NCBI GenBank assembly: GCA_000004985.1
Contig: GG738857.1
From: Naegleria gruberi
Taxonomy: Eukaryota
Strand: one strand, 5' to 3'
DNA length: 64,000 nt
Shown: one piece after another, positions 8,877 through 58,975 of the stretch
Layout of the letters: the number at the start of each line of letters is the position of its first letter
Numbering within the stretch: the stretch's first letter is position 1
Position numbers and translations under genes: made by a program
The notes under the pieces: generated by a model
What the model was told of the DNA's origin: nothing
What the model saw: the letters and a program-made list of their open reading frames with translations, nothing else
The model's database searches: none

Positions 8877-8991
8877 AATAACCAAAGTTTAAACACCTTC
8901 TGACCTAGATGTTGGTTAATTAAGAGATTTTAGGTTCCGATTTATTAAGATATTAAGACATTAGCATATTTTTATGAGGAATGAATAAGAT

Positions 8992-29051: not shown

Positions 29052-29273
29052 ATGAAATTCCCATTCAACACAAGTGGTACTCGTTCAACCACAACAACCA
29101 CCACCAACACAACAACCATTGTAAACAATCCAAATACAGTAAGAATGTCAATTGACCAACCGATTAGTGATTTAGATAGAAGAGAAATGATTGGTTTAGA
29201 TGATGTCGAGGATATTCATTCTGCTCTCATCTTTGAAAACATTCCTCGCAGACGTTTCAGTTTCCAAAAATAG
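29052..29273 (+). CDS. Small hypothetical Thr/Asn-rich protein (73 aa)
   Basis: First ATG inside ORF 28965..29273. No homology recognised, and it may be non-coding. Confidence 0.25.
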   Translation: MKFPFNTSGTRSTTTTTTNTTTIVNNPNTVRMSIDQPISDLDRREMIGLDDVEDIHSALIFENIPRRRFSFQK

Positions 29274-33826: not shown

Positions 33827-34046
33827 ACTTTTTATTAATAATTTGAAACTCTATAATTGCCATTTTACCAGAGAATATTACGATTAATTGAGATATGGAA
33901 ATATCATGATTTAACTTCGCAAGCCATAATGTTCATGATCTTAGAATTCTTTTAAATTCACGGTTTTGTTTTTTGGAGTGCTCCCAAAAAGTCATTCTGC
34001 AAACATTGTGATTTCTTCCCAGTGCTCTGTGGAAGCAAAATAGATG

Positions 34047-34162
34047 TTAATTTGGTTTGGAATCTTTAGTAAGGGTGTTGAAACAACTCAAAAAGCTCTC
34101 TAATTTTAAAAAAAAACCACTGCTAAAATATTTGGGCCCCTAAAGATTCCAAACCAAATTAA
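34047..34162. repeat. 23-bp perfect inverted repeat with a 70-nt spacer
   Basis: TTAATTTGGTTTGGAATCTTTAG at 34047..34069 is the exact reverse complement of 34140..34162. It lies in the intergenic region between BBS1 and the first coiled-coil gene. Confidence 0.8.
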
Positions 34163-34303
34163 TATTTATTTTGATGGAATCATTCTTGAGAAGTGATACC
34201 ATCATTCCATTAGAGTGGGTCCAGTCTTTGTGCTATTCTTTGAATCCAAATTTTGAGGAGAAGGACAAATCAAATTGATAAAAATTCTACCATGGCATTC
34301 CTG

Positions 34304-34327
34304 TGTCAAAAGTGAATTGACGAGTCA
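34304..34327 (+). promoter_or_regulatory. Candidate promoter-proximal element: TGTCAAA plus the 16-mer GTGAATTGACGAGTCA
   Basis: The 16-mer at 34312..34327 is identical to 40505..40520. TGTCAAA at 34304..34310 recurs 25-80 nt upstream of four cluster ATGs. Confidence 0.4.
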
Positions 34328-34334
34328 ACAAAAA

Positions 34335-35500
34335 ATGCGTAAATCAACATCTGAAAAAACTCTTCCAGAAACAATCAACATAAAAAACCCATCCGAAGAT
34401 GAAAAATCCACTCTCCAACAACAAGATTGGTTTTGTGAATTAGTTTCAACCTACACAGAGCACAAGATAAACGCACTTGAGAAGGAAAATCAAAACCTAA
34501 TCCAAAAGTTGTTGGCTCTAACAGTTGATCAACGCTATATTAAATTTCTTGAATCTATTCCTTCATTGATGCAAAAACAACAAGAGCACAACAAACAAGG
34601 AAACTCTGACAATGAGTACAAAAAGTTAAACGAGAAGCTTGATGAAGTAATTGATGATTATGAGGACGTCAAGAGGAAATTAAAAAAAGCAGAAGAGAAT
34701 GCAAAAAAACCAAAGATGCTTTTGTTGAACAGCACTATTATAATGAAGAGAATATTAAAGAAATCACCAGGAAAGAAGAGAAGGTACGTGAAGAATTGGC
34801 TACCTTGAATGGAAAGTACCTTTATGAAAAGGAATCGTTCTTGAAACAAGTGTCCGAGTTAACAAAAGAAAGAGATCAACTAAATGATCAAATTTCAATT
34901 TACAAAACTCGAAATGATCCTGCCTTGCTGATGAATGACTTTTCTGATAACACAGTCAAAAAGATACATGATGAATATGTCACTTTGAAATCACACGATT
35001 TGAATTCTTTTGTGGGAAGAGTAGTTGAAGAACATTCATTAAGTGAAGATCAGGAATTTGATTTTGATTTAAAAATTGTTGCATTTGCATTCAAAACAGT
35101 CCGTAAACTCATTGAAGAAACCTATTCTGAAATGAATTTCGAACTAATTGGCAAGAAACTTACAAATGAAGAATCAGAAAGAAACCGCCTTATTGAAACC
35201 CTCGTCCAGACAATTGCAAAAATGGAAGAAATTGGAAAGAACAAGAAATTACAACAAGCTGCCAGAGAATTTATAACCAAACTCGTGAAATTCTATTGTA
35301 ACATGTTTCTCATTGATAAGAAGCTTGAATTGGTTTGGGCTTCAACTGGATCTCTCTACAATCCTGAATGGTACGATTCAAGAAATGCAACCAGTAACAT
35401 TGTAGTCACTAATGTTTTCAAACCTGCTCTCATGGACACATTCACCAAAACAGTCTACGAAAAAGGAATTGTTGAAACTACCCAAAAAAGGAAAAAATAA
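34335..35500 (+). CDS. Coiled-coil protein with conserved C-terminal domain (cluster family member 1); 1-nt frame break
   Basis: ATG 34335 (CAAAAAATG context). Frame A reads ...VKRKLKKAEENAKK, then frame B reads TKDAFVEQHYYNEENIKEITRKEEKVREEL... The switch is at the A7 run 34703..34709. The C-terminal domain begins 'KTRNDPALLMNDFSDNT' and ends '...LELVWASTGSLYNPEWYDSRNATSNIVVTNVFKPALMDTFTKTVYEKGIVET'. Confidence 0.65.
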
Positions 35501-35522
35501 CAATTATTACCTATATCAATAT

Positions 35523-38500
35523 TTATATTAAAACTCTCTTGTATGTAATTAAATATTCAGGATAGCATTGATTCCTATCATAGATAATATATTCATTGTA
35601 GGTGTGTTGTGATACCGACTTGGATCTTCCAATAACACTGTCATAAACTCTTCCATTTGAGTTTTCAATGACAGGTGGTCTTCTTTCATTTCTCATCTTT
35701 TCCCTTGTTTTGAAAACCATCTGACCTAACAGAACTCTACTGAGAAATATAAAACACTCACCATCCTTATTCGAAACACAATATTGATCACTCTTACTAC
35801 AGCAATCAGCAAAGTATATTCCAGCTCCAAACAAACCACTCAAAGCACTCAATCTTTCATCAAAGCCGTGTTCTGAAATGATTGACTTGACTACTTCTGT
35901 TGTTCCATGCCATAAATAAACTTCATTCACATTGGAATCTAATTCACACATTTCGTCAACAAAATCATTTCTAATTGGTATATCCATTACCTTCTTTTTA
36001 TCCTTATAGGAAATTAGGTGTTTCTTCTTTGATAGATACATTTCATAAAGTGATAAATTCTCAATTCTTTCCACTTTTAGAACTTGTAACTTGTTATATG
36101 GAAATGAATCTTTTTCATGGTTTCGTTTCTTTCCTAATGTAATTGTTACACATGTCTTATCCAATAAATCTTGAATATCCTCTTTTAATTCAGCGGTAAC
36201 ATCTATAATTGACATGTTATTTTGATTTGATTTCCAATAGGAAGGCTTTTGTTTCGTTTCCTTTCTTCTTGTCCCACGAAAGAATTCATGTCTTAATAAC
36301 TCAGATGCAGATAAAGTACAAATTTCTTCACGAATATTAATTGAGTCCATTAGCGTTTTCAAAAGAGATGAATATTCATCGAGTCGTTCCATTGACATGA
36401 TGTCAATTACCATTTTCACGAAACAAAACATTTCTTTCTGGAATGGTAATTTGTTTCCCTTTTCCTCTATTTTCACAACATTATCAAATCCATCCAATAT
36501 TAATTTAACTTGTTCATCTTCAATAATTTTCACATACACATTCGCAGCTCTAATATTTCCATGAACAAATGAATAGGTATGAAAATGATGAATGGCTGAA
36601 AGAATCTGAAACCAAATATCTTCCCATCCTGATCTAATGGATGAAAAATCTTTCAATGTTCCAATTGAGTAATATGGCATAACAATACAAAGTTTATCTT
36701 GACAAAGATAAAATCCAATTAATTCTGCAATATTTGAATGTTTGATTTTCTCTAGAATTTCAACTTGTTCAATTACCATTTCAATTTTATCCAATGAATA
36801 TTGTTTAACACGATAGAAAATATTCGAATTCTTATCAACTGCCTCAATAAGCATATAATTCAGAAATGCAGTTTCACTAATTGTAGTCAATTCCAAAGTG
36901 CTTACATCTTGAATTCCTATAATTTCTGATAGTAAATCATAGAATCCTGATCGATAGAGTGTAATTGATTTGTTTCGAATATCATTTCTGTTAATTTGAA
37001 GAGTTTCGAGTTCAGTTTCTTGTTCCATAATTTTTAGACAGGGCGCAGTTGATGTTGAGTTGTTTGTTTCCCACAATTTTTTCTCAATTTCAATTGATCT
37101 TTTGCGTGCTTCAATGTTCTCACTCATTAATTTGTAATTAATTCCATATTTAGAAATATCAAATTTAGAAATTATTGTTAAAGTTAATTGCATATTTTTA
37201 AATTCATTACAGATGGTAGTAATATTATTGATAAAATCAAGGCAATTATTTTTCATATCATCAATAAAGTAGCAATATCCTTTCAATTTCTTTTTCAATA
37301 AATGATACAATTCCAAATTTGGATTTTCTTTCAATAAGGAAAATAATTTTGAAATGGAATCTCCAATATCATTTGTATCATTGCTTATTTCTGAAAATTC
37401 AAGTGTTGAAATATTACTTGAAAAATTTGAAAGAAAATTTGCAACTCCACTCAATTGCTTATTACATGTATTAATCCATTTCTCCAAATTAGTCGAATAT
37501 TCTTCAAATGTTAATTCCAATTCTTCATAATTCGATATTTCATTACATGGAATTTCTTCTCCACCATTCAAAAATTCATTAATTTCTTTAGAAATTTCAC
37601 TCAAACTCTTTACAAATTCAATAAGAAAATTTCCATAATCACTTTTCTTAATTTGATTATTCATTGATTCATGGATTTGAAATTTGCTTCGAAATTCAAT
37701 TAAATCTTGAGGATTTTGTGATGAATAAATCGATTTTGAATTAATTTGGATAGGGCTGAGAAGATTCTTAATATCTGTAAACTTTTTCATGTCATATTCG
37801 TTAATTATGATATTTCTAATAAGTCTATCAGTGGTAAATCTTATAGTTTCCAATTGATTTTTCCTATTTTTGTATTCGAAACCTAATTGGGAAAGCTCTG
37901 TAAATATTGATGCAAAATGAATGAATTTAATTTCTATTGGAGATGTGCTAGTAGATGCTTGACTCACTTCTACATTAATTTCTTTTGTTTCCACATTAGT
38001 CTTATTTCTTTTTTCAGATTTCATTTCCTTTTGAATCGTTTTTATGGATTTCCCGCCACATTTCAATGCTATTGATATTTTGATATTAGGATGTTCTAAT
38101 AATAATTTTCACAATTTCAATTTTATCTCTTTCGCAAGCAACTTGCAAAGGTGTTTTAACCTTCCAAAATTGGTAAAATAAAAACTTGCAAATTAATACT
38201 TACCATCTTTAATCTTAAAACTCAATTAATTAAATATCAAACTTACATTCTGAATAATTCAATAAATGTATACTCATCATTAACAAGTTACTTACACCCT
38301 TATTAACATCCAATTCATTTGATTCCAATAATAATTTCACAATTTCAAGATGACCATCATAACATGCAATAAACAAACAAGTTTGTTCTGATTCTACACC
38401 ACAAAATGTCTTGAATAACAAGCTAATAAGTATTCATTTTGCTTCAAATCATACTTACTTCATTGACATTGACAAGTGACAGTAAATATTTGACAATCTC

Positions 38501-38782
38501 AACATTTCCACTTCTACAAGCATGATACAATGGAACCTAAACACATTTAACAATATATGATGATATAAAACCTACTCCGATTCTTGGATTTACCTTCTTT
38601 TCTTCTAACAAGTATTTTGTAATTCTTGTTGAATTATTAGAAATTGATTCTTCTAATAGAGTTTTGTTCGAAACAAGAGTTTTTGAAAAATCGGACAAGG
38701 ATTCAGCTAATGAAATGAATTGCTCTAAATTATCACTTGAAATTGACGAGATTACTTTCTTCTCAAGTTTCTTTTTCAACAT
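35523..38782 (-). CDS. Ankyrin-repeat / pseudokinase-like / PARP-catalytic-domain protein; 1-nt frame break
   Basis: Exons 38576..38782, 38459..38536, 38296..38409 and 35523..38160, with introns of 39, 49 and 135 nt. Ankyrin units: VPLYHACRSGNVEIVKYLL; TCLFIACYDGHLEIVKLLLESNELDVNKG; KTPLQVACERDKIEIVK|LLLEHPNI, where | marks the frame break at the T4 run 38106..38109. The kinase-like region lacks the catalytic Asp (HGNIRAAN where HRDxxxxN is expected, DGF where DFG is expected). The C-terminal PARP signature is H (LWHGT), Y (GAGIYFA), E (YNEYIIYD). Confidence 0.75.
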
Positions 38783-38800
38783 TTTTTTTAAACTAAACTT

Positions 38801-40432
38801 TTAATTCTTTTTTGACACTCTGACAATTACTTTTGCCTTCTCATAAATACTTCTCGATTGCAACTGCATTAGGGATGGAAAGACTGTGCACTGAATCTTT
38901 GGAATGGTTGTGTTATTTCTTGCATCTTGTTCGTATGGATTAAAATTGTCCTTTGCTTTATACCAAACGAATTCCAACTTTTTTGAATTGGTAAACATTT
39001 TCATGTAGAGTTCAATTGCCTTATCAAGTAATTCTGAGGTTAGATTACTAACTTCCCGATCTCTACAAATATGCTCAGGATTCTCAACTTTGAATTTGTT
39101 GAAAACGTGTTCAATGGAGGTGAAAATCTCATTGTGGCAGCTTTTGAGTAGTTTTTTCTTATCTGAATCTTCCAATGGCTTGCATCCATAACCTAATTTC
39201 TTGTCTTTCAATCTGTGTTGTAATGATTTGCCCTTATTGTCGTCTTGAGCTGGTGAAAAGAGGTATTTGGCTAATTCCATTTCAATTTCACATTCAAAAT
39301 CTTGTGCTACATCATCTCCATTAAGATTTTCACTCATTTCTTCACAAAGAGAACCCAATGAATTCTTAATTTCAAAATAAGCATCCTTAATTGACTTGGT
39401 GGTATTGTCGGAGAAATTGTTCATCTCAAGAGCTGGATCATGTTCTGCTTTGACAATTCTAAAATTATCTTCAAGTTGAGCAATCTTTGATTCTAAACCA
39501 TTTTTCAGTTCGATTAGTGCTTCTTTTTCTTTCTCAAATCTTGATTGGTTTTCACTTGCTTCGGTTCTCATTCTGTTTTTATCCTTTTCCAGATTTGAGA
39601 TTTTACTTTCAAGAGATTGAAGGTTTGCCTGGAGTTCAAGTGTGTCATTTTTAAGATCCTTATTATCACTTCTCAAATCTTCAAGCTTTTTGGTTGTATT
39701 TTTGTGGCTGTCTTGTTCAGTCTTCAACTTTTGTTTAGTTTCATCATGTTCACTTCTCAATTTGTTGAAATTCTTTTCTAAAGTGTCCTTTTCCTTCTTG
39801 AGATCTGTAAATTCTTTTTTCTTTGTATTCAATTCAGTAATCTTTTGATCTTTTTCACTAACCAATTGCTTTTCACGGTTCTGCAAATCATCATTTTCTT
39901 TCTTTAATTTCTTCTCATTATCTCTTGCTTCATTGCTTTCTTTGGTTAATTTTTTAATTCTTTCATCTTGATTTTGGGATTTTTCTAATGAGATTGATTT
40001 AAGGAATTCAACAAGTTTCTTATCAACTTGTACAGTGTCTAATATGTCTCTTAATCTGTCAACTTCCTTGGTATGCTTTTCTGACTCTTCCTGGATGTGG
40101 TTAACTTTGTTTTTTTCCTTATCAAGATTACTTTGGAGAATAGAAACTTGTTTTCTTTGACTCTCTAAATCTTGTTTAACCTTGTCAAGTTCGTGTTGGA
40201 GGATTTGTGCTACATTCTTTTCCTGGTCCCAATTACTTTGCAGATTGGAGGTTGTTAGCTTTTCTTTATTAAAGGCCTCTTCAATTGACTTGAGTTGAGT
40301 TTGAAGTTGTGAAATTCTTTTTTGATAATGGGAGGGATCTACTTCTTGTGTTGGGGGTGGAACATCACTTGTTGGTTGTTGTTGGGGTTTGATGGTGGAT
40401 GATGGTTTATTTGAATTGGATTCGTTTGTCAT
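38801..40432 (-). CDS. Coiled-coil protein with conserved C-terminal domain (cluster family member 2)
   Basis: I place the start at ATG 40432 (AAAAAAAATG context), not the track's non-ATG start at 40528. A long heptad-rich K/E/Q/L region is followed by 'KAEHDPALEMNNFSDNT...LEFVWYKAKDNFNPYEQDARNNTTIPKIQCTVFPSLMQLQSRSIYEKAKVIV'. Confidence 0.75.
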   Translation of the reverse strand: MTNESNSNKPSSTIKPQQQPTSDVPPPTQEVDPSHYQKRISQLQTQLKSIEEAFNKEKLTTSNLQSNWDQEKNVAQILQHELDKVKQDLESQRKQVSILQSNLDKEKNKVNHIQEESEKHTKEVDRLRDILDTVQVDKKLVEFLKSISLEKSQNQDERIKKLTKESNEARDNEKKLKKENDDLQNREKQLVSEKDQKITELNTKKKEFTDLKKEKDTLEKNFNKLRSEHDETKQKLKTEQDSHKNTTKKLEDLRSDNKDLKNDTLELQANLQSLESKISNLEKDKNRMRTEASENQSRFEKEKEALIELKNGLESKIAQLEDNFRIVKAEHDPALEMNNFSDNTTKSIKDAYFEIKNSLGSLCEEMSENLNGDDVAQDFECEIEMELAKYLFSPAQDDNKGKSLQHRLKDKKLGYGCKPLEDSDKKKLLKSCHNEIFTSIEHVFNKFKVENPEHICRDREVSNLTSELLDKAIELYMKMFTNSKKLEFVWYKAKDNFNPYEQDARNNTTIPKIQCTVFPSLMQLQSRSIYEKAKVIVRVSKKN

Positions 40433-40454
40433 TTTTTTTAAAGACGTACGAAAA

Positions 40455-40536
40455 TTTGACGAGTTGTAATGTAATTTTGAAACCTGCATTCCGTGTTCCG
40501 TTCTGTGAATTGACGAGTCATCATTCACTTGTCAAA
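40455..40536. promoter_or_regulatory. Divergent promoter with repeated TTGACGAGT / TGTCAAA motifs
   Basis: The 134-nt region between ATG 40432 (-) and ATG 40567 (+) contains TTGACGAGT at 40456..40464, GTGAATTGACGAGTCA at 40505..40520 and TGTCAAA at 40530..40536. Confidence 0.4.
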
Positions 40537-40566
40537 TGTTTAACTATCAAACAAATAATCAAAAAA

Positions 40567-41778
40567 ATGGGATTCTTTGGGTTTTTCAGTGATGACAATA
40601 AAGAAGAAATAAAGAAGGAGTTGAAGGCGGCAAAGGAACAAATTGAATACCAAAAGAAAGAGGTAGAAAGCCAGCGAAACAAAATTATAACATTAGAAAC
40701 AAATAACACCAATTTGCAAACTAGAAACACAACTTTACTCCAAGAATTTAAAATTTTAAACCCGAAACTTGAAAAATTAACACTTGAAAAACAAAATTGC
40801 GAATATATTTCCTCTCAATATCAAGCAAAAGCACAAGAATTGAACAAGAAATTACAAGAACTCGACAAGCAGTACAATTCCACTGTTCAAAATCTCAACA
40901 CTGAATTACAATCTTGTAAATTTCAATTCAATCAAGCAATCACTGAGTGGAAGCAAGAGAAGAACAAATTTGAATTAGAATTGAAAAGTGTAAAACAATC
41001 AAGAGATCAACAAATTTCTTATTCCACTCAATTACATTCAGCATTGACTGAAGAAAGAGAGAATTTCATAAACTTGTCCCAAACCAAAGAACAAGAAATT
41101 GAAAAGTTGAAAGCTGACATTATTTTAATCAAAGCTCAAAATGATCCAGCACTTGTTGTCAATGATTTCTCAGATGAAAGTCCTAAACAAATTAGAGATT
41201 TGTATCTTCAATCAAAATCAAGTATTGACACTTTGACAACAACCTTGGAAGACAATTTGACAGAAGATGAACAAGAACAATTGGAAATTATTATAGCCAA
41301 GACACTCTTTGAGAAATTAGAAGAGACTGTTATGAAATTTGTGTGTGAAACAAAACAAGTTGACAGCAGTGATAGAAAGCTCATTGGTGAATTATTGAAA
41401 TCAGATATTGAAATGAGAAAGCTTGTTATTTATCATACTTCAGTTGGATTAATGAATCAAATTAAGGAACAATTTGCCAGTTTTAGTAATTTTATTGAAA
41501 ATTGTAAAGATGAAGAAAGAATTCAAATTCAAAATGAAATTGACACAATGTCAACAAGTTCAATTTCAATGCTAGCAATGATCTTGAGAAATGAGCAAAA
41601 TATTGGTTTCGTTTGGTATAAACCAAAATCAGATTTCAATACTTTAGAACAAAGATCAAGAAATGCTGATAAGAAAATTGTAATTGATACTTGCATTTAT
41701 CCTTGTTTAATGTTGAAGGGATCAAGAAGTGTTTTTGAACAAGCAGTTGTTACAACAAAATTAACAAAACACAAATAA
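40567..41778 (+). CDS. Coiled-coil protein with conserved C-terminal domain (cluster family member 3)
   Basis: ATG 40567 (AAAAAAATG context). Coiled-coil N-terminal half, then 'KAQNDPALVVNDFSDES...IGFVWYKPKSDFNTLEQRSRNADKKIVIDTCIYPCLMLKGSRSVFEQAVVTT'. Confidence 0.75.
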   Translation: MGFFGFFSDDNKEEIKKELKAAKEQIEYQKKEVESQRNKIITLETNNTNLQTRNTTLLQEFKILNPKLEKLTLEKQNCEYISSQYQAKAQELNKKLQELDKQYNSTVQNLNTELQSCKFQFNQAITEWKQEKNKFELELKSVKQSRDQQISYSTQLHSALTEERENFINLSQTKEQEIEKLKADIILIKAQNDPALVVNDFSDESPKQIRDLYLQSKSSIDTLTTTLEDNLTEDEQEQLEIIIAKTLFEKLEETVMKFVCETKQVDSSDRKLIGELLKSDIEMRKLVIYHTSVGLMNQIKEQFASFSNFIENCKDEERIQIQNEIDTMSTSSISMLAMILRNEQNIGFVWYKPKSDFNTLEQRSRNADKKIVIDTCIYPCLMLKGSRSVFEQAVVTTKLTKHK

Positions 41779-41994
41779 ATATTTACAAATATTACAAAAT
41801 ATTTAAAAATATTGAAAAAATTACTGTAAATTTTGATCATCACACTAAATCTGCATTAACTTTCTACACAATTGTAGTTGACGGAATTTACGGAATTGAA
41901 AATTGTAATATGACTTAATTTGACATGGGAAGTGTCCATTTCAACACGTCATGTCAAAGTTTCTAATTATCAATTCTCAAAAAACAAAAAAAAT

Positions 41995-43871
41995 ATGAGC
42001 ACCAGCACCCTCATCAAACCACAAGCAGGTAAAAACTTTGTCGTTTGCATTGACTTTGGATCTTCAGGTTCTGGCAGTTCAATTCTCTTCGTAAAGGATG
42101 AAGATAAAATTTTCACTCTCAAAACTTATCCAGACTCCCCTAACGTAGTTTACAATAAGAATATGTCATGTATTTTATATGAAGATGGTAAGAGACATAG
42201 TATTGGTTATACTGCTAGAAAGACAATGTTCTTTGAAAATGATGACGAAGATTCAGATGAAGATTCCGGTGAAGATTCGGATAGAGATTCAGATAGTGAA
42301 AGTGAAGAATCTCATGGATCAACTTCAACTGCTCCATCAAAAAAATCAGCAACTCCACTAAAAGATAGAAAATTTATCAGAGATTTAAAAATTCAATTCA
42401 TGGAAGCAACAAAAGATGAGAAGGAAATTTCAATTCCAGAAATAGTAATTTCCAATGATGGAACAACCAAATCTTTACTTGATGTGATGGCAGATTACTT
42501 ATCCATGTTATTCACAGATTTTATCATGAAGAGTTTAAAGAATAACGATAGCTCTGTTAAGAAAACTGATGTTCGTTGGTGCATTACAGTTCCCGCCAAC
42601 TATTCAGAACATCAAAAATCCCTAATGAGGAAAGTGGCATGTAAGGCAAAGATTATAGATAAGGAAAATTGTGATGAGAGTGATTTGATTATCATTTCTG
42701 AACCAGATGCTGCTACCATGTTCTGTATGAAACATAAGGCTAAATCTAAACCACTTACAAATGGTGAAACTTTTATGGTAGTTGATGCTGGTGGTGGTAC
42801 TGTAGATGGTAAGTTTGAGAAATTCTTGATTTAACATTTAAATTCTGTAACAGTCAGTTGTCATATGCTTGAAAATGGTAAATTGAAAGAGTTGGCAGTT
42901 CAAAAGGCAGAGCTATGTGGTTCTACATTTATTGATAGAGAATTTATTAAGATTTTAGAAGAAAATTGTGATAATTTCAAAGAATTTACAGAGAAAAATC
43001 CAGAAACTCTTGTCAAGATATTATCAATTTGGGAAGATGTTAAGAGAGGTACTTTGACAGTTGACAAGAAATTGACATTTGACACATCTCCAATGTTTAA
43101 AAAAGCAAAACCTAATAGTTCAATTTACAAATCAAGATCTACCAAGATTGCATTAACAGATGAACAAATGAAAAGAATATTTGACAGTCAAGTGTCAAAA
43201 GCACTCAAATTGATTGATGAAGTTTATAGAGATTATGAAGAAGATTATCCAAGTAGAAAGATGGATCACTTATTTATTGTTGGTGGTTTAGGAGATAATG
43301 GTTATTTCCAAAATCGTATTAAGGAAAGATTTGAAAAGAAATTTAAGGAAATTTTAATTCCACTTTTCTGTTCGACAGCTGTCATGGAAGGAGGTGCATT
43401 ACTTGCTAAGGATCCATCATTCGTTCAAGAAAATCAAAGTTATCATATGGTGTTGGTGTCATGGAAGAATTTGAAGAAGGGCATCATGCTGAAAGCAAGT
43501 ACAAGGTCATTAATGGTAAACATATGGCAGTTGACGTGTTGGATGTTTTTGTTGAACAACGTGAAGAAGTTGAAATTGATAGAGAAATTGTTAGAGAATA
43601 TGAATGTTTACCAGGTGCTACTCAAATTGATGTTGTTCTCTATTCATCTATTAAGAGAAGAGAAGCAATTCCTTATATTGATTCACCACTAGTTTCTAAA
43701 GAGGAAACAATTACAATTCCTTTTAGAGATTCATCAAAGGAGGCAGATAGAAGAGTTTTTATTAAATTCTTCTTTGGTAAATCAGAATTAATGATTACTG
43801 TTGAAAATGCACAAGGTGAAGTTAAGGAAATTAAGAGAGATTTTGAAGCAAACTCACTTGCCCTAAAATAA
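41995..43871 (+). CDS. HSPA12-type Hsp70-like ATPase (paralogue 1); 1-nt frame break
   Basis: Exons 41995..42808 and 42854..43871, with a 45-nt intron (phase 1). The junction GGGTVD|VSCHMLE matches GGGTVDLTCHKFE in the paralogue. Motifs: VVCIDFGSSGSG; WCITVPANYSEHQK; IISEPDAATMFC; FMVVDAGGGTVD; LFIVGGLGDN. The frame changes at the A4 run 43430..43433, after which the second frame gives ..SKLSYGVGV, aligning with RMRMTYGVKA in the paralogue. Confidence 0.75.
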
Positions 43872-44116
43872 ATAGTTGAAATTCCATTCACAAAAATCTT
43901 AATATTTATTAGTATGAGCGAAATATAACCTCAATATCATTATTACAATCTGATCTTTTTCGTTTATCAAAACTGTAGAAAGCTTTTTTTGAACTGTAGT
44001 CACTCTCGAATCGTGATTCATTGTAAAACTTGTCAAACTTACCGATCAGAATTCCGTATGACGTACGATTTCTCATTTCTCATCAGTTTATTCTGTTCCA
44101 TTAACACACAAAAAAA

Positions 44117-46556
44117 ATGTCATCATCAACTGTTCCTGTTCGTTCAGGTTCCCTCAACAAGAAGAAAGTTGTCATTTCCATTGATTTTGGTACATCAAGA
44201 ACTGGTTTCTGTTATTCACTCACCAATGATGTGAAAAAGACTCGAGTTAAGAATACCTCATGGAAAGATGCACCAAGTGGAGTTTCATTCCCAAAGACTC
44301 TCACTCAATTACTTTATGAAAAGAGTGATACAAGAAAACCTGTTGCTTGGGGTTACACTTCACTTGACATGTTGTCAAGAGAATTTGAAGATGAGAGTGA
44401 ATCTGATGAAGATGAAGAAGGTGGTGAAGAGATTCCAGCACAAAATAGCAAGTATTATCATTTCAAGACATTCAAAATGGGATTATTCAATAATCCATCT
44501 GGTATGGTGAAGGATACAACTGGTGTTTTTGAAAAGAATGTTGGTGAATTGATAGTTGACTATTTGAAATTATTATTCCATGATCAGATTAAGCCAACTG
44601 TTGAGAAATCATTGGGATCTAAATTGAATCTTGATGAAGTTACTTGGTGTTTAACAGTTCCAGCCATTTGGAAAGATGAACAAAAATCAGATATGAGATT
44701 AGCTGCTTACACTGCTGGTTTAACAAAGACACCTGAAGCATCTTCTGATGATTTTAAGATTATTCTTGAACCAGAAGGAGCTGCTGCTTATTGTATGGAA
44801 TATCAAGCTTCTAAAGGTAAACCATTGAGAGAGGGCGAATCATTCCTTGTTTGTGATCTTGGTGGTGGTACAGTTGACTTGACATGTCATAAATTTGAAA
44901 AGGCAAGATTGAGAGAATTAGCTGAAGGATCTGGTGATGCATGTGGTTCTACATATTTAGATGATGCTTTTATTATTTATTTGGAAGAATGTTTTGGTAA
45001 GAAATTTGTTGAAACCTTAAGGAAAAAGTATGGCCAAACTTATTTGGACATTTTAAAGATTTGGGAAAGAACAAAAGTTACAACAACAGATTTAACAAAA
45101 GATATTAATGTTGATATGCCTGGTCAATTAAGTAGTTTTTTAGAAAGTGCCAATGTTAAAAGTGATAAATTCAGAGCTAAAAGAGGTCAACTCAAAATTA
45201 CAAGTGAAGCTTTACAAACAATTTATCAAGATTCATTAGAAAAAACAAGAAATCTTGTTGAAAAGCAATTAGAAACAATCCAATCAGAGACTGGTAAAAT
45301 GGTTGATTATATTTTCATAGTTGGTGGTTTTGGTGCTTCCAAAGTAGTTCAAAACTTTCTAATTGACAATTTCTCTTCACAAGTTAAGGGAATTGTAATT
45401 CCAAATGAACCTGCTGAAGCTGTTGTTGATGGTGCTGCATTATTAGGTATTGATGATTCATTAATTTCAACACGTAGAATGAGAATGACTTATGGAGTTA
45501 AAGCTCAAAAAGGAAGTGAAGAAATATTCGATACTTTTGTAATTGCTAATCAAGAACTTGAAGTTGATCAAGGAATTTCAAGAGAATACAAAGTTCAAAG
45601 AGCTAATCAACAAGCTATGAAAATAATCATCTACAGCACTAAATTGAAATCAATTACAAAAGTTGACGAAACTAAATGTCATAAGATTGGTGAAATTCAA
45701 GTACATATGACAGATATGACAGGTGGCATGGATAGAATAGTGAAAGTTACAATGTATTTTGGTAGATCAGAAACTAGAGTTACTGCCATTGAAAAGAATA
45801 CTGGAATTGAGTATAGTGCATTAATTAAGTATGATGGTGAATTATTTTCACATGGTGAAAGTATTGCTGACACTCCACCAGTTCAACCTCACCATTTGTA
45901 AGTATAGAATGTTATATTGAAGTTTACAATTTCTAACTGTTAAAAGAATTTTTGCAAATGATGTTTCAGGATCAATGTGGGCAAGAGATGCTTTACCAAC
46001 AATGAGTTTACTTAAAGTAAGTATTCTTCCATGATGTTTTTTACTAATATTCAATTAGACCTCTCATAATAACAGAGTAGGAGCACTTTATGAAGCATGT
46101 TATGCCTTTTTAGAAACAAGAAAAGAAACTTCAGATATTTCATCGTGTATTCTTCATAATCATGATTCAATCATTATTTATGATAAAAAACCTGCAACTC
46201 CATCACTTGTTTCTGATTACATGATGAAATATAATGCCGACGGTGGCAACAACTTTTTAAAAGTATTCGAAACTGTCGAACAAGTTCTCAAATCGAGTAA
46301 TAACGAGGAATTCAAACCAATAGTTTTCTTTATGACAGATGGTGCTTGGCACGACGACGGAGCACCTGCCTACTTGGAAGGCTTAATGTTAAGATATCCA
46401 GATTTAACAGTTCATGTCATTAATTTGGGTAGTTCAATTAATTTTGAATTGATGAATAGAATTGCAAAGATTGGTAGAGGAACCATTTCAACATCTGGAA
46501 TGAGCGCTGTAGAATTGAAGAGTACCTATCTCAGCTTGCTTCCTTACTTGGATTAA
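44117..46556 (+). CDS. HSPA12-type Hsp70-like ATPase fused to a C-terminal von Willebrand factor A (vWA) domain
   Basis: Exons 44117..45897, 45947..46016 and 46059..46556, with introns of 49 and 42 nt (phases 2 and 0). ATPase motifs: VISIDFGTSRTGF; WCLTVPAIWKDEQKSDMRLAAYTAGL; ILEPEGAAAYC; FLVCDLGGGTVDLTCH; IFIVGGFGAS. The vWA MIDAS motif DVSGSM appears only after splicing, and a later FFMTDGAWHDDG follows. Confidence 0.8.
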
Positions 46557-51212: not shown

Positions 51213-52668
51213 ATGGGTAATAAATCTTTTAAACAAGCGAACAACAAATCAATTTCATCAACAAGTTTATCATCACAACCCAATTCCAATTTTAATAACA
51301 ATAACAACAACAATAATAACATGTATCAAAGAAATACTCATCATCTTAGAACTGGTGGGAAGAGTGTAGTTTTTGGTTGCGGATATAATTCAGCATCATT
51401 ACTCGGAGTATCACACTCTGATGTTGAAGATAATGGAGTTCATGGATCAAATTCCTTTTCTCAAGATGTAACACAATTTGTTTTCTTATCAACATTACAA
51501 GAATTATTGAATAATGATTCTCCTGGACAACATGTTTGTCAAATTGTTGTTCAATTTTCCAAAACCTACTTTTTAACATCTCATGGTCATGTCTATACTT
51601 CATTTCCATTAGCAAGAGATGTTCAATTTGATAGTATTTTACCTGATCGTGTTGTGGAAATGAGATCAGGACAGAATAGAACATTATTTAGAACTGAATT
51701 TGGTCAAATTTATGTAAAAGCAGATGGTCCACTCTCTAAAATTACTGGAGTTACTAATACACAAGTAAATAATGTAAAATTATTTGGAGTTGGTGGTTTA
51801 CATTACTGGTTATTAGATGATGAAACTAATCGTTTATATGGTGAAGGAGAAATTAATGGAGCTAGTGTTGAAAAAGTTATAGAATTGAATGATTATTTAC
51901 AGAAAGATGAAAAAGTTAGAGATATTGTTACAGGTGGTAATTCGTATGTTTTTTTTATTTCATTTTATAGTAACAATTATATATAACATTGTTTAAATAA
52001 TGATGAATTGAAATTTGAAATTTGATAATAGATTTGTTTTAATAACAAATAAGAATAATATTTATGTATATGGAGAGAAGGAAGCTTTTGGATCAACAGT
52101 TGATGAACATTATTCTAAACCAACAAGATTAAGACAATTTGATGGAATGGTAAAATCAGTTGTTTGTGGATGGTATTTTACAATTATTTTAACATTTAAT
52201 GGACAATTATGGATGGCAGGTAGAAATACATATCAACAACTTTCATCTAAAAATCTATCATCTCATGATAATGTTGTTCAATGGTTTATAGATGATTCAT
52301 TAGTATTAAATCCAAATGAAGAAATTGATCAAATTGGATCTGGATCAGATCACGTTTTAATATCAACAACAATTGGAAGAATTTTCACAAGAGGAATGAA
52401 TACATATGGTCAACTTGGTAGAGATAATAGAACTCAATCTGGAGTATTTATGGAACCAAGTTTTAAAAATCAAAATTACAAGGAAATTATTTCTAAATTT
52501 GTTGGACCAAAATTTTCAATTTCATTTGCAGATAATAATTTTAATACTTTAAGTTCCTTTTTAATTATTCATTCAGTTAGAGAATCAAAGGAACTTATTC
52601 AAATGAGATCAAAACTTTTAAATTGTTCAAAACAATCTTTATTATCAGATTTAGTAATTTTACATTAA
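51213..52668 (+). CDS. RCC1-repeat (regulator of chromosome condensation-like) protein
   Basis: Exons 51213..51943 and 52032..52668, with an 88-nt intron (GTATGT..TAG, phase 2). RCC1-like blades: VVFGCGYNSASLLG; GGLHYWLLDDETNRLYGEGE; IYVYGEKEAFGS; GQLWMAGRNTYQQL; GRIFTRGMNTYGQLGRDN. Confidence 0.7.
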
Positions 52669-53247
52669 AACATTTTAATTTATTATTTAATATATTATTT
52701 TGATGATTGTAAAGTTAAAATGATGATCATGTGAGGATTAGTTATTATTGATTCAAGTCATTAGAGATAGATGAATAATAATTGATGAAATTTGAATGAA
52801 AATTTATTGTTTTTAGAATGTACTGTCAACATAATTTTTCCATAAAAGTAACAATTGTGAATCTTCGTAATGTTAAATATCAAAAATCAAAAACTGATTG
52901 ACGTTGTGTAAAACCAAACGTCATCAAAAATCGACTCGTCATTAAAAAAAATATCTGAACAGCTCTTAACAATAACAATCATCATCACCTGTTTCTGATA
53001 ATAAAATTATTATTATTTGATTATTATCGGTTTCTAATAACAATAGAGGTTAAGTGGCAGTAGAGTAATATAGAAGTTTTTTATAGAAGGAGTAGAAACA
53101 AATCATCATCATCATCATCTCTCTCCAGTTACTCACTCCATAACTATATTGTTATCATCATCAATATCATCAATTTATTATTATTATTAATAATATTAAA
53201 TAGTGTACATATTACAATAATAATAATAATAATATTAAAAAATTAGA

Positions 53248-54992
53248 ATGTCAGGTTTTTCATCACAATCTATTCAAGCATCACTTGTTAGACCATCCAA
53301 ATATAGACATTTAAATGGATTTGAAACTAAAAGTGAGAGATATGAAAATATTAATGTTGGTTATGGTCAAAAATTAAGTAATACATTAAAAACCAATGGT
53401 TCAATCTATGCATTACCATTTAATGTAACAGGTGGTACTTTATCATTTAAATATTTAAATGATTATGGTAGATGGGATGAAAAATTACAAAATTATGGAA
53501 TTATTAAGGCTCACAAGGGAAGATTATCAGATTTTGATATTTCCCCTTTTAGAAATAGAGATCATTTAGTAACTGTTTCTAATTCTGATAATATTATTAG
53601 ATATTGGAAATTACCTACAAATAATAATGATAATGATAATAATAGCAATGATATTTCTTCTTCTAATATTACTTCTACTAATACTTCCAATATAAATGGT
53701 AATAATACTATATATAGAACCTATGAAGAAATGGATTGTGATTTGGAATTAAATGATACAAATAATACAAAATCAACTATTAGTAGAATATCATTTAATC
53801 CACTTGTTGATAATTCACTTGTTAGTATTCAAGGAGATTTAATCCATTTTTGGGATGTTGAAAAAAAGAAAATTTTAAATTCAATTCAAAATTTACCAAA
53901 TCCATCAATTTCTAGTAAAACATTACCAACAGTTGAAAGTTTAGGATGGAATGAATATGGTAATTTATTTATATGTGGTACAAATGATCGTTCCATTAGA
54001 ATTTATGATATTAGATTATCTTCCAATTATAGTAATAATAATAATAATAATAATAATCAATCTAATAATCAACAAATATGTATAACTGAAGGACATTCAA
54101 GTATGAAACCATTTCAAACATTATATTGTGAAAATATGTATATATGTAGTGTTGGATTTTCTAAAAATGGAGGTAGAGAATTAGCCATGTATGATATTAG
54201 AAAAGATTTGAAATGTTTACAAAGAATTTCCATTGATAATGGTGGTTCAGTTTTAACACCATTTTATGATTCAGATATTAAATTACTATATTTAGTAGGT
54301 AGAGGAGATGGTAATATTAGATTTTATGAATTAGAAGGTGGTATTATGCATTATTTAAATGATTATAATTGTCAATCTACATCTGCATCTGTTGATTGGT
54401 TACCAAAATGGAAATTAAATGTTAATAATTTTGAATTGGCTAAATTTTTAAGATTAACAAATGAAAAAACAATTGAAACTCTTTCAATGAGAGTTTCTAG
54501 AAAATCAAATATTGAACAATATTTTCAAGAAGATATATTTCCAGATACTTGGAATGGTCAACCTATTTATAATAATACTAATCAATGGTTAAATACTATT
54601 ATTAATAATAATACTACTTCTATTAATAATAATACTATACAAAGTAATATTAATAATAGTAATGGTAATGGTAATGAAAATTTGAATGAAAATGAATTAT
54701 TACAAACTAGACCAACCATGTCATTAAAACCATCTGATAAAATATCTATCTATGATGTACCTATTAGTGAAGGTGGTAAAATTAGACCATCCACTACTAA
54801 TTTAAGTAAATTACATTCATCATCATCTTTAAATAGTATTGAAAATACTCCAACTACTACATTAGATACCCCAACTACTATTACAAATTATAATACAAAT
54901 GAACAAGTTGATGATGAATTTAAAGATTTAAATGAAAATCAACAATTTGATGACAATGAAGAAGAAGAAGAAGAATTAATTACCATTAATAC

Positions 54993-55023
<31 letters not shown>

Positions 55024-58908: not shown

Positions 58909-58975
58909 ATCACTCGCATATATTATTATTAAATTTGTATATTTTTTAAAATGATCATATTCTTTCAAAAGAAGA

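What the first reader, a model, noticed from the sequence alone, without database searches (positions are those of the whole stretch)
34304..44037. Shared promoter-proximal motifs in the cluster: an identical 16-mer and a positioned TGTCAAA
GTGAATTGACGAGTCA occurs identically at 34312..34327 and 40505..40520, and a third TTGACGAGT sits at 40456..40464. TGTCAAA occurs at 34304..34310, 40530..40536, 41952..41958 and 44031..44037. Those copies end 25, 31, 37 and 80 nt before the ATGs of the four plus-strand cluster genes. The related CGTCAAA (reverse complement of 40455..40461) lies ~23 nt upstream of the minus-strand ATG 40432. I did not see TGTCAAA in the last ~60 nt before the other ATGs I inspected (7731, 26936, 29534, 31968, 51213). 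A TGACGAGTC copy also lies upstream of the villidin-like gene (reverse complement at 52933..52941, next to two TGACGT cores). The TGACG core may therefore be a general bZIP/CRE-like site.
Basis: seen in the sequence. Interest (0 to 1): 0.5.

Follow-up and report, generated by a model that had tools for sequence, protein, structure and literature searches.

The report
Shared TTGAC promoter code, Naegleria cluster
Six neighbouring Naegleria gruberi genes share short DNA words built on a TTGAC core, placed just upstream of each start codon and also scattered in pairs through the genes themselves; this looks like a switch that controls the whole cluster together, and it would be the first such regulatory code proposed for this organism.

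Summary
In detail: every coordinate checks out. The window is Naegleria gruberi NEG-M.

- **16-mer:** GTGAATTGACGAGTCA lies upstream of two paralogues that share only 25% protein identity. Their flanks do not align, so it is a conserved island, not a duplication relic.
- **TGTCAAA:** it is not enriched in the window overall (34 found, 34.2 expected). Its sense-strand placement upstream of start codons is cluster-specific: 5 of 6 cluster genes against 0 of 21 others. The sixth gene has CGTCAAA.
- **One theme:** both motifs are TTGAC[A/G] sites. The 16-mer core is a double site, TTGAC-GA-GTCA.
- **Paired sites:** 27 occur in the window against about 6 expected, and 18 of them lie in the cluster. 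Twelve sit in coding DNA against 1.5 expected after synonymous-codon shuffling.
- **Palindrome:** TTGACA-N3-TGTCAA occurs three times, only in cluster genes.
- **Other species:** the same gene neighbourhood in other heteroloboseans carries such sites in its promoters.

Best reading: these are cluster-specific transcription-factor sites. Binding, start sites and co-expression are untested.

The parts
34335..35500 (+). Gene A: coiled-coil protein with a conserved C-terminal domain. The reading frame shifts at about 34720-34800, so this is a possible pseudogene or an assembly error.
   Evidence: faint MIEAP match, E=3e-4, below cutoff; 25-27% identical to D and C.
34304..34310 (+). TGTCAAA box of gene A. 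It is in sense orientation and ends 25 nt before the ATG.
34312..34327 (+). 16-mer copy 1, GTGAATTGACGAGTCA. Its core at 34317..34328 is the double site TTGAC-GA-GTCAA.
35523..38782 (-). Gene B: ankyrin repeats, a kinase-like domain and a PARP catalytic domain, with several short introns. The ATG is at 38782, only 18 nt after the stop codon of gene C.
   Evidence: PARP E=2e-25, Pkinase E=2e-10. Exon 1 and the ankyrin exons were read directly.
38811..38826 (-). Gene B proximal site. Read in B's sense it is TTGTCA-GAG-TGTCAAA. The TGTCAAA (38811..38817) ends 29 nt before B's ATG and lies inside gene C's last codons.
38743..38750 (+). Fourth TTGACGAG copy, inside exon 1 of gene B.
38801..40432 (-). 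Gene C: coiled-coil paralogue (XP_002679563.1, NAEGRDRAFT_79006).
40433..40566 (.). Divergent C/D promoter, 134 bp. It holds GACGTACGA (40443..40451), TTTGACGAGT (40455..40464, which is CGTCAAA 23 nt before C's ATG), 16-mer copy 2 (40505..40520) within the dyad GTGAAT-TGAC-GA-GTCA-tc-ATTCAC (40505..40528), and TGTCAAA (40530..40536, 31 nt before D's ATG).
40567..41778 (+). Gene D: coiled-coil paralogue. The ORF is 403 aa but only a 148-aa fragment is annotated (XP_002679442.1). It carries 7 TTGACA/TGTCAA sites between 41157 and 41554.
41878..41958 (+). Gene E promoter sites: TTGACG (41878), TGAC-ttaat-TTGACA (41911..41925), CACGTCA (41945..41951) and TGTCAAA (41952..41958, 37 nt before the ATG).
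41995..43871 (+). Gene E: HSPA12-like Hsp70-fold ATPase. It has a 45-nt intron at 42809..42853 and a frame shift near 43440-43460.
   Evidence: 31% identical to F.
44031..44068 (+). Gene F promoter sites: ACTTGTCAAA (TGTCAAA at 44031..44037, 80 nt before the ATG) and TGACGTACGA (44059..44068).
44117..45901 (+). Gene F: HSPA12-like ATPase (XP_002679444.1, 'chaperone protein'). This is its first exon. The annotated 782-aa protein continues downstream; homologues carry a weak VWA match.
36392..36406 (.). Exact palindrome TTGACA-TGA-TGTCAA in the coding DNA of gene B.
   Evidence: 3 in the window, 0.03 expected.
41540..41554 (.). Exact palindrome TTGACA-CAA-TGTCAA in the coding DNA of gene D.
44364..44378 (.). 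Exact palindrome TTGACA-TGT-TGTCAA in the coding DNA of gene F.
43054..43198 (+). Dense sites in the coding DNA of gene E: four TTGACA within 31 nt (43054..43084), then TTGACA-GTCAA-g-TGTCAA (43181..43198).
41225..41262 (+). Three direct TTGACA copies in the coding DNA of gene D. TTGACACTTTGACAA matches 38812..38826 at 14 of 15 positions.
38463..38495 (+). Three direct TTGACA copies in an ankyrin exon of gene B, antisense to B.
35882..35891 (+). TTGACTTGAC in the coding DNA of gene B. A second copy lies at 44874..44883 in gene F.
   Evidence: The same 10-mer is the potato BEL5/POTH1 site in PMC3904721.
52823..52941 (.). Possible outlying member, 307-425 nt upstream of the villidin-like gene: TGTCAAC (52823), TGATTGACGT (52895), ACGTCA (52919) and GACTCGTCA (52933).

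Best explanation
**What it is.** The motifs are binding sites for a sequence-specific DNA-binding factor that co-regulates a compact six-gene cluster in Naegleria gruberi. The cluster holds three coiled-coil paralogues (A, C, D), an ankyrin-kinase-PARP gene (B) and two HSPA12-like ATPases (E, F). The unit is a TTGAC[A/G] site.

**Three layouts.**
1. A strand-fixed YGTCAAA box lies 23-37 nt upstream of the start codon (80 nt for gene F). Each gene of the divergent C/D pair has its own sense-oriented copy. I infer that this box sits at or just upstream of the transcription start and gives direction.
2. Position-flexible double sites, of which the identical 16-mer (TTGAC-GA-GTCA) is the clearest. 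It lies upstream of the box in gene D and downstream of it in gene A. I infer that it acts as the regulated operator or enhancer.
3. Many further paired sites lie inside the coding DNA of B, C, D, E and F. I infer that they raise local occupancy of the same factor.

**Which factor.** The most likely factor class is a TALE-homeodomain dimer (about 40%). bZIP or an unknown family remain possible.

**Shown and inferred.** Shown: the sequence pattern, its statistics, its specificity to the cluster, and its recurrence in related species. Inferred: protein binding, the identity of the factor, transcription start positions and co-expression.
For: 1. The 16-mer is a perfect island. The A and D proteins are 25% identical and their upstream regions do not otherwise align, so neutral DNA would be saturated.
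2. Sense YGTCAAA is present in 6 of 6 cluster promoters and 1 of 21 others. It is the top-ranked word in an unbiased test, and no label permutation reached it. Non-homologous genes share it (B, E/F and A/C/D), so common ancestry does not explain it.
3. TTGACGAG occurs 4 times, all in the cluster, against 0.76 expected.
4. Paired TTGAC/TGAC sites (linker up to 5 nt): 27 in the window against 6.1±2.5 expected, and 18 of them lie in 19% of the window (binomial 1e-7).
5. In cluster coding DNA there are 12 paired sites against 1.5±1.2 after synonymous-codon shuffling. Control coding DNA has 2 against 2.4.
6. The exact palindrome TTGACA-N3-TGTCAA occurs 3 times against 0.03 expected, all in cluster genes.
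7. Site density peaks at 40-42 kb, around the divergent promoter.
8. The same neighbourhood (HSPA12-like genes next to this coiled-coil family) recurs in Acrasis kona and in Logan contigs.
   - In L001 the 177-bp divergent promoter holds 4 of the contig's 10 sites and all 3 of its TGATTGAC copies. One TGTCAAT ends 30 nt before one ATG and another ends 60 nt before the other.
   - In A. kona (L005) TGTCAAC ends 36 nt before an ATG.
   - L002 has TGTCAAC-TGTCAAA in its divergent promoter.
9. The architecture matches published TALE sites.
   - Potato BEL5/POTH1 double TTGAC motifs occur in any orientation with a linker of up to 4 nt, including TTGACTTGAC and TTGACaaGTCA (PMC3904721).
   - The TGIF1 crystal structure is on ATTGACAGCTGTCAAT (PMC6158717).
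   - The Hth-Exd seed is TGATTGACAG (bioRxiv 10.1101/706473).
   - N. gruberi encodes 12 TALE homeobox genes (PMC6219170).
Against: - No transcription start, expression or binding data exist for these genes. A literature search on their accessions found nothing.
- Only 27 candidate promoters could be tested, some with uncertain start codons.
- The N. fowleri orthologous locus could not be fetched.
- The coding-DNA enrichment is not seen in the related contig L001 (3 found, 1.45 expected).
- The palindrome in gene F is incompatible with the N. fowleri protein at that position (LDMLS vs LELIS), so those sites are not anciently conserved.
- Two related promoters lack the motif (L008, and the L002 gene at 4702-5937).
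- The palindrome spacer is 3 nt, not the 2 nt of TGIF/MEIS homodimer sites.
- The box in gene F is much further out (80 nt).
- The order of box and 16-mer is reversed between A and D.
- L001, L002 and L005 may come from one species, so they may not be independent.
Confidence: 0.68

Rival explanations
1. bZIP/CRE-like sites. A bZIP dimer binds TGACG cores, and these are a general promoter element in this genome.
For: - TGACG lies within 100 nt of 5 of the 6 cluster ATGs.
- ACGT-core elements are present: TGACGTAC (44059), CACGTCA (41945), GACGTACGA shared at 40443 and 44060, and TGACGT twice upstream of the villidin-like gene.
- TGACG is mildly over-represented in the window: 42 found, 29.6 expected.
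- L007 has TTGACGTCAA at its start codon.
Against: - There is no TGACGTCA anywhere in the window. The only AP-1 site in the cluster is in coding DNA.
- Only 1 of 21 non-cluster promoters has TGACG, so it is not general.
- In the 16-mer, TGAC and GTCA are 2 bp further apart than in a CRE.
- bZIP binding does not explain TGTCAAA, the TTGACA pairs or the N3 palindromes, which make up most of the signal.
Confidence: 0.15
2. YGTCAAA is a class-specific core-promoter element, an initiator or a TATA substitute, that sets the start site. It would not be a regulator's site. This can coexist with the best explanation.
For: - The strand is strictly sense in 6 of 6 cluster genes, and the position is narrow (23-37 nt before the ATG in five genes).
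- Each gene of a divergent pair has its own sense copy, in N. gruberi C/D and in L001.
- TATTTAAA-type boxes are nearly absent from the cluster: 1 of the window's 42.
Against: - It is absent from 20-21 of 21 other promoters, so it is not a general core element.
- Gene F has it at 80 nt, and relatives at 60, 96 and 149 nt.
- The same word occurs in pairs inside coding DNA in both orientations, which a start-site element does not explain.
Confidence: 0.25
3. The element acts in RNA. UGUCAAA in the 5' UTR and UUGACA-N3-UGUCAA hairpins in the mRNAs would be bound by an RNA-binding protein that co-regulates the transcripts.
For: - The proximal box is in sense orientation in all six genes.
- The three exact palindromes would each form a 6-bp stem with a 3-nt loop.
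Against: - The intragenic direct arrays are sense in D and E but antisense in B.
- TTGAC is biased to the + DNA strand whatever the gene direction.
- The 16-mer lies in opposite orientation relative to C and to D.
- In gene A a transcript starting upstream of the box would need a start not yet shown.
Confidence: 0.06
4. The locus-wide paired sites serve a DNA-level function other than ordinary promoter activation. Examples are dense repressor or silencer coating of a conflict-type gene island, a boundary, or a recombination or gene-conversion signal.
For: - Twelve paired sites lie in coding DNA against 1.5 expected, with none of this in control genes.
- The density profile is a broad peak over about 9 kb.
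- There is a + strand bias, 39 TTGAC against 20 GTCAA.
- The cluster's content (PARP, HSPA12-like genes, fast-evolving paralogues, two frame-shifted copies) fits a rapidly evolving island.
Against: - No precedent has been tested in this organism.
- The enrichment is not seen in L001.
- The promoter-proximal, strand-fixed copies are more simply read as promoter elements.
Confidence: 0.12
5. Chance, plus remnants of duplicated promoters between paralogues.
For: - A/C/D are paralogues and so are E/F.
- TGTCAAA is not enriched in the window as a whole.
- The motifs were chosen after looking at the sequence.
Against: - Upstream regions do not align outside 18 of 19 nt, although the proteins are 25% identical.
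- The motif is shared by non-homologous genes.
- The permutation, Markov and synonymous-shuffle controls all reject chance.
- The sites recur in other species.
Confidence: 0.03

Closest known systems
TALE-homeodomain double sites: plant KNOX/BELL (potato POTH1/StBEL5), animal MEIS/PBC (Hth-Exd) and TGIF
   Same: - The core is TTGAC/TGACA.
- Sites occur as two cores on either strand with a short linker. TTGACTTGAC occurs twice here, and TTGAC-GA-GTCA parallels potato TTGACaaGTCA (PMC3904721).
- The palindrome TTGACA..TGTCAA matches the TGIF1 crystal DNA ATTGACAGCTGTCAAT except for the spacer (PMC6158717).
- The L001 sites TTGATTGAC[A/G] match the Hth-Exd seed TTGATTGACAGC at 9-11 of 12 positions.
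- N. gruberi has 12 TALE genes (PMC6219170).
   Different: - The palindrome spacer is 3 nt, not 2.
- N. gruberi sites prefer TTTGACA or AATTGACG rather than TGATTGAC.
- The proximal copy is strand-fixed and within 40 nt of the ATG, whereas the plant sites lie 0.5-1.8 kb upstream.
- Dense occurrence in coding DNA is not a described TALE feature.
- No binding has been tested.
bZIP sites: CRE/ATF TGACGTCA, AP-1 TGA(C/G)TCA, and plant as-1/TGA-factor TGACG repeats (recalled from general knowledge)
   Same: The TGACG half-site is present in the 16-mer and near 5 of 6 ATGs. ACGT-core variants lie upstream of E and F. TGAC..GTCA has dyad symmetry.
   Different: - There is no full CRE in the window.
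- The half-site spacing in the 16-mer is +2.
- Most cluster sites are TTGACA, which bZIPs of these classes are not known to prefer.
Plant WRKY W-box TTGAC(C/T) (recalled from general knowledge)
   Same: It shares the TTGAC core, often occurs in clusters, and sits upstream of defence-type genes.
   Different: The base after TTGAC is A or G in 73% of cluster sites and C in 3%, against 22% C elsewhere in the window. This is the opposite of the W-box preference.
Protist core-promoter elements at fixed distance from very short 5' UTRs, such as the Trichomonas Inr and the Entamoeba TATA/GAAC/Inr (recalled from general knowledge)
   Same: It is a short, strand-specific word at a narrow distance upstream of the ATG in a compact genome.
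   Different: Those elements are found at most genes. This one is confined to the cluster within the window.

Membership tests
TALE-homeodomain binding sites (MEIS/PBC, KNOX/BELL, TGIF) | Core TGAC(A) / TTGAC | tested here: met
   All cluster motifs reduce to TTGAC[A/G]. There are 59 TTGAC in 12.3 kb against 119 in 51.7 kb elsewhere, and the next base is A in 58% and G in 15%.
TALE-homeodomain binding sites (MEIS/PBC, KNOX/BELL, TGIF) | Two cores within a few bp, in any orientation (potato criterion: one TTGAC plus one TGAC, linker up to 4 nt) | tested here: met
   With a linker of up to 5 nt there are 27 pairs in the window against 6.1 expected, and 18 are in the cluster. TTGACTTGAC occurs twice and TTGAC-GA-GTCA twice. 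The criterion is from PMC3904721.
TALE-homeodomain binding sites (MEIS/PBC, KNOX/BELL, TGIF) | Homodimer palindrome TGACAGCTGTCA (2-nt spacer between TGACA and TGTCA) | tested here: not met
   The three exact palindromes have a 3-nt spacer, TTGACA-NNN-TGTCAA. The reference site is from PMC6158717 and bioRxiv 10.1101/706473.
TALE-homeodomain binding sites (MEIS/PBC, KNOX/BELL, TGIF) | Heterodimer composite TGATTGAC(AG) | tested here: inconclusive
   It is met in the related contig L001: 3 copies, all in the 177-bp divergent promoter. In the N. gruberi cluster there is only one copy, in B's coding DNA at 35879, plus one upstream of the villidin-like gene at 52895.
TALE-homeodomain binding sites (MEIS/PBC, KNOX/BELL, TGIF) | The organism encodes TALE homeodomain proteins, and one of them binds the site | not testable with these tools
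   PMC6219170 reports 12 TALE genes in N. gruberi, including PBC-like and MEIS/KNOX-like ones. Binding needs EMSA or DAP-seq.
bZIP CRE/AP-1 sites | Palindromic TGACGTCA or TGA(C/G)TCA | tested here: not met
   The window has no TGACGTCA. Its single AP-1 site in the cluster, at 37960, is in B's coding DNA, and none lies in the cluster promoters.
bZIP CRE/AP-1 sites | TGACG(T) half-site near promoters generally | tested here: inconclusive
   It is present near 5 of 6 cluster ATGs and three times upstream of the villidin-like gene, but near only 1 of 21 other ATGs.
WRKY W-box | TTGAC followed by C or T | tested here: not met
   In the cluster C follows in 3% and T in 24% of sites, while A or G follows in 73%.
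General core-promoter element of the genome (TATA or Inr type) | Present at a large share of promoters | tested here: not met
   TGTCAAA is in 0 of 21 and GTCAAA in 1 of 21 non-cluster promoters.
General core-promoter element of the genome (TATA or Inr type) | Fixed distance to the transcription start site | not testable with these tools
   No start-site data are available. Only the distance to the ATG is known: 23-37 nt in five genes and 80 nt in F.
Giant-virus early promoter AAAATTGA | The exact octamer upstream of genes | tested here: not met
   There are 14 copies in the window. The two in the cluster (36781, 38117) are not in promoters. No relatives of F or the coiled-coil family were found in viral contigs.

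The most novel reading that the evidence does not exclude
The cluster is a direct target island of the ancestral TALE-homeodomain dimer in a discoban. A conserved heterolobosean module of HSPA12-like ATPases, a rare coiled-coil family and a PARP gene would be switched as a unit by TTGAC double sites. In N. gruberi the factor would coat the whole 9-kb locus through sites written into the coding sequences at synonymous level. If so, this would be the first cis-regulatory code for Naegleria and would show that TALE double-site recognition predates the split of the major eukaryotic groups. It would also be a rare case of locus-wide selection for factor sites inside protein-coding DNA.
Probability: 0.2. 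Interest if true: 0.75.

Novelty: new member of a known kind. Interest (0 to 1): 0.5.

Why it matters
My literature searches found no study of promoter motifs or transcription start sites in Naegleria. This cluster offers a concrete, testable candidate:
- a short strand-fixed box near each start codon;
- a perfectly conserved 16-bp double site;
- an unusual load of paired sites inside coding DNA.

It also ties together a gene neighbourhood (HSPA12-like ATPases, a rare coiled-coil family, a PARP fusion) that recurs in other heteroloboseans and whose function is unknown. If the TALE link holds, it gives a first target set for these ancient regulators outside plants and animals.

Tried and rejected
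- **Duplication relic.** Rejected. The A and D upstream regions align only over 18 of 19 nt, and the proteins are 25% identical.
- **Overall enrichment of TGTCAAA or TTGACR in the window.** None: 34 found vs 34.2 expected, and 101 vs 98. The signal lies in placement, pairing and locus.
- **Fetching more N. gruberi or N. fowleri DNA.** Exact look-ups of F, P0001 and P0002 found no contig. The one metagenome scan gave a single distant locus (35% identity) without the motif. Neither the genome-wide test nor a Naegleria-to-Naegleria footprint could be done.
- **More family members for more promoters.**
  - Gene D found nothing in the word-indexed protein search.
  - The profile found only the known members.
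  - The exhaustive search found 31 proteins in 1.84 billion.
  - The MIEAP link is weak: 1 of 7 members, below cutoff.
- **L008.** Its divergent spacer is only 38 nt and has no motif. L007's start is ambiguous.
- **Coding-DNA enrichment in relatives.** Not significant in L001.
- **W-box, giant-virus early promoter, canonical CRE/AP-1 and STAT-like TTCNNNGAA.** None fits.
- **Viral origin of the cluster.** No viral relatives were found.
- **Known RNAs in the cluster.** None in Rfam.
- **Poly(A) signal reading of TGTCAAA.** Rejected, because the divergent C/D spacer has no upstream gene.
- **Literature on the gene accessions, or on HSPA12 together with MIEAP.** Nothing found.

Full report
**Source and gene map**

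The window is Naegleria gruberi strain NEG-M. The ORF at 44117..45901 is 100% identical to XP_002679444.1, 'chaperone protein'. The finding covers six tightly packed genes.

| Gene | Coordinates | Strand | Content |
|---|---|---|---|
| A | 34335..35500 | + | Coiled-coil protein with a conserved C-terminal domain; frame shift near 34720-34800 |
| B | 35523..38782 | - | Ankyrin repeats, kinase-like domain, PARP catalytic domain |
| C | 38801..40432 | - | Paralogue of A |
| D | 40567..41778 | + | Paralogue of A |
| E | 41995..43871 | + | HSPA12-like Hsp70-fold ATPase; one 45-nt intron; a frame shift |
| F | 44117..45901 and on | + | HSPA12-like ATPase, paralogue of E |

- Paralogue identities are low: A-D 25%, A-C 27%, C-D 28%, E-F 31%.
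- The coiled-coil family is rare: 31 proteins among 1.84 billion representatives.
- Its link to the MIEAP domain is faint.

**Checking the observation**

- The 16-mer has two exact copies and no near copies; 0.05 are expected.
- The two upstream regions share 18 of 19 nt and nothing else. Given 25% protein identity, this island is unlikely to be a passive relic.
- TGTCAAA is not over-represented in the window: 34 found, 34.2 expected.
It ends 29 nt before the ATG of gene B and lies inside the last codons of gene C.
- Sense YGTCAAA therefore ends 25 (A), 29 (B), 23 (C, as CGTCAAA), 31 (D), 37 (E) and 80 (F) nt before the start codons.

To correct for choosing the word after looking, I ranked all stranded k-mers. 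The measure was presence in the 100 nt upstream of 6 cluster start codons against 21 other candidate start codons.
- GTCAAA ranks first among 6-mers: 6/6 vs 1/21, 2e-5.
- TGTCAAA ranks first among 7-mers: 5/6 vs 0/21, 7e-5.
- None of 300 label permutations reached these values.
- Caveats: some non-cluster start codons are uncertain, and C and D share one spacer read in opposite directions.

**One motif family, mostly in pairs**

TGTCAAA is the reverse complement of TTTGACA, and the 16-mer contains TTGACG. Several results support treating both as TTGAC[A/G].
- TTGACGAG occurs 4 times against 0.76 expected, all in the cluster.
- TGTCAA/TTGACA on both strands occurs 83 times in the window. Of these, 34 fall in 33827..46100, which is 19% of the window (binomial 4e-6).
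- Site density peaks at 40-42 kb, with 15 sites per 2 kb against about 2.5 elsewhere.
- The base after TTGAC is A in 58%, G in 15% and C in 3% of cluster sites. Elsewhere in the window C follows in 22%.

The sites are usually paired.
- The 16-mer core is TTGAC-GA-GTCA.
- Gene A has TGTCAA-7-TTGACG.
- Gene D has TTGACG-14-TGTCAA.
- Gene E has TTGACA-26-TGTCAA.
- Gene B has TTGTCA-GAG-TGTCAA.

I then counted pairs formally, as one TTGAC plus one TGAC on either strand with a linker of up to 5 nt.
- The window has 27 pairs against 6.1±2.5 under a second-order Markov null (maximum 13 in 300 simulations).
- Eighteen of the 27 lie in the cluster (binomial 1e-7).
- With both cores full (TTGAC), there are 14 against 1.6 expected, and 12 are in the cluster.
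- The exact palindrome TTGACA-N3-TGTCAA occurs 3 times against 0.03 expected. All three are in coding DNA of non-homologous genes: B at 36392, D at 41540 and F at 44364.

**Sites inside coding DNA**

I shuffled synonymous codons within each gene, which keeps the protein sequence and codon usage.

| Set | Measure | Observed | Shuffled (mean ± sd) | P / maximum |
|---|---|---|---|---|
| Cluster coding DNA | TTGACA/TGTCAA hexamers | 26 | 11.5 ± 2.9 | P<0.001 |
| Control genes | TTGACA/TGTCAA hexamers | 25 | 17.6 | P=0.03 |
| Cluster coding DNA | Paired sites | 12 | 1.49 ± 1.19 | max 6 in 500 |
| Control coding DNA (25.8 kb) | Paired sites | 2 | 2.44 | P=0.69 |

The pairs in gene bodies therefore reflect a DNA-level pattern, not amino-acid content. 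Four points limit the functional claim or remain unexplained.
- The enrichment is not significant in the related contig L001.
- The palindrome in F cannot exist in N. fowleri, given its protein sequence at that position.
- TTGAC is biased to the + strand, 39 against 20, whatever the gene direction.
- Gene A shows no enrichment.

**Related sequences**

N. gruberi and N. fowleri DNA could not be fetched. Contigs carrying 40-43% identical homologues of F show the same neighbourhood of HSPA12-like genes next to members of the coiled-coil family. These are L001 and L002 (Logan, organism unknown) and L005 (Acrasis kona).
- **L001.**
  - The 177-bp divergent promoter between two coiled-coil genes holds 4 of the contig's 10 TTGAC[A/G] sites.
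  - The sites are arranged as TTGACA-9-CGTCAA and TTGACA-7-TGTCAA.
  - The promoter also holds all three TGATTGAC copies of the contig.
  - Sense TGTCAAT ends 30 nt before one ATG and 60 nt before the other.
- **L005.** TGTCAAC ends 36 nt before one ATG, and TGACAATTGAC abuts the other.
- **L002.** TGTCAAC-TGTCAAA lies in the divergent promoter.
- **Negative cases.** L008 has a 38-nt spacer. The L002 gene at 4702-5937 and L006 also lack the motif.
- **Independence.** These contigs may come from a single species.

**Interpretation**

The simplest account is a set of cluster-specific transcription-factor sites.
- The proximal box is strand-fixed and narrowly placed, which suggests a role at or near the transcription start.
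- The 16-mer changes place relative to the box between A and D, so it behaves like a position-flexible regulator site.

The architecture matches published TALE-homeodomain sites.
- Potato BEL5/POTH1 binds double TTGAC motifs in any orientation with linkers of up to 4 nt. Examples are TTGACTTGAC, which occurs twice here, and TTGACaaGTCA, which parallels TTGAC-GA-GTCA (PMC3904721).
- TGIF1 was crystallised on ATTGACAGCTGTCAAT (PMC6158717).
- The Hth-Exd seed is TGATTGACAG (bioRxiv 10.1101/706473).
- N. gruberi encodes 12 TALE homeobox genes, including PBC-like and MEIS/KNOX-like ones (PMC6219170).

This is a resemblance in how the sites look, not a demonstration. The palindrome spacer is 3 nt rather than 2, and no binding has been tested.

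Three results weigh against it as a general explanation.
- The window has no canonical CRE.
- The 16-mer half-site spacing is atypical.
- TGACG is rare at other promoters.

**Verdict**

- The feature is a new, untested member of a known kind: a regulon-type cis-element set.
- The locus-wide load of paired sites in coding DNA is an unusual and unexplained extra.
- Confidence that these are functional cis-regulatory sites is about 0.7.
- Confidence that the factor is a TALE homeodomain is about 0.4.

Noticed in passing
window 34036..34069 and 34140..34173: An inverted repeat with 34-nt arms, 94% complementary and 70 nt apart, lies in the spacer between the BBS1 gene and gene A. It could be a small foldback element or hairpin. 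It has no Rfam match.
   Followed up: partly
window 34720..34800 and 43440..43460: Genes A and E each change reading frame in mid-gene, while homology to their paralogues continues in the new frame. They are either pseudogenes in a fast-evolving family or assembly errors at A-runs.
   Followed up: partly
window 40567..41778: Gene D has an intact 403-aa ORF, but the public annotation holds only a 148-aa C-terminal fragment (XP_002679442.1, NAEGRDRAFT_65183). The full-length query found nothing in the word-indexed protein search.
   Followed up: yes
window 38782..38801: Gene B's start codon lies only 18 nt after gene C's stop codon on the same strand. B's promoter must lie inside C's coding DNA, or else the two genes are co-transcribed.
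   Followed up: partly
window 35523..38782: Gene B has an unusual domain combination: ankyrin repeats, a protein-kinase-like domain and a PARP catalytic domain.
   Followed up: partly
window 33827..46100; L001, L002, L005: HSPA12-like ATPase genes and members of a rare coiled-coil family lie next to each other in N. gruberi, in Acrasis kona and in unidentified Logan contigs. The family has 31 proteins in 1.84 billion representatives. This is a conserved eukaryotic gene neighbourhood of unknown function.
   Followed up: partly
window 33827..46100: TTGAC is twice as frequent on the + strand (39) as its complement GTCAA (20), across genes of both orientations. Elsewhere in the window the counts are 55 and 64. 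This is unexplained.
   Followed up: no
window 40443..40451 and 44060..44068: The CpG-rich 9-mer GACGTACGA occurs only twice in the window. Both copies are in cluster promoters: the C/D spacer and upstream of F.
   Followed up: partly
window 3579..3590 and 29147..29156: Outside the cluster there are two tight full double sites. TTGACATGTCAA sits at the candidate start codon of the minus-strand ORF 2215..3585, and GTCAATTGAC is at 29147.
   Followed up: no
window 9615..9640: Upstream of the unknown 602-aa gene (ATG at 9708) lies GGTCAATTGATACGTATTGACGTTAAT, which holds two TTGAC-type cores. This gene may be another member of the regulon.
   Followed up: no
window 7438..7556, 5978..6058, 8991..9064: A 5S rRNA gene (105 bits), tRNA-Ser(CGA) and tRNA-Glu(TTC) lie among the protein-coding genes.
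   Followed up: yes
window 33827..46100 vs the rest of the window: The TATA-like word TATTTAAA occurs 42 times in the window but only once in the cluster (41800). It sits 38-48 nt upstream of several other start codons (4932, 20068, 48113).
   Followed up: partly
window 22622 and 62862: Two runs of N, 211 bases in all, mark assembly gaps.
   Followed up: no
window 52000..60000: G+C content drops to 22-26%, with long AAT/ATT-type runs around and inside the 1886-aa coronin-gelsolin-villin headpiece ('villidin-like') gene.
   Followed up: no
window 13624..15363: This minus-strand gene is made of seven DUF4116 repeats (E=1e-84).
   Followed up: no
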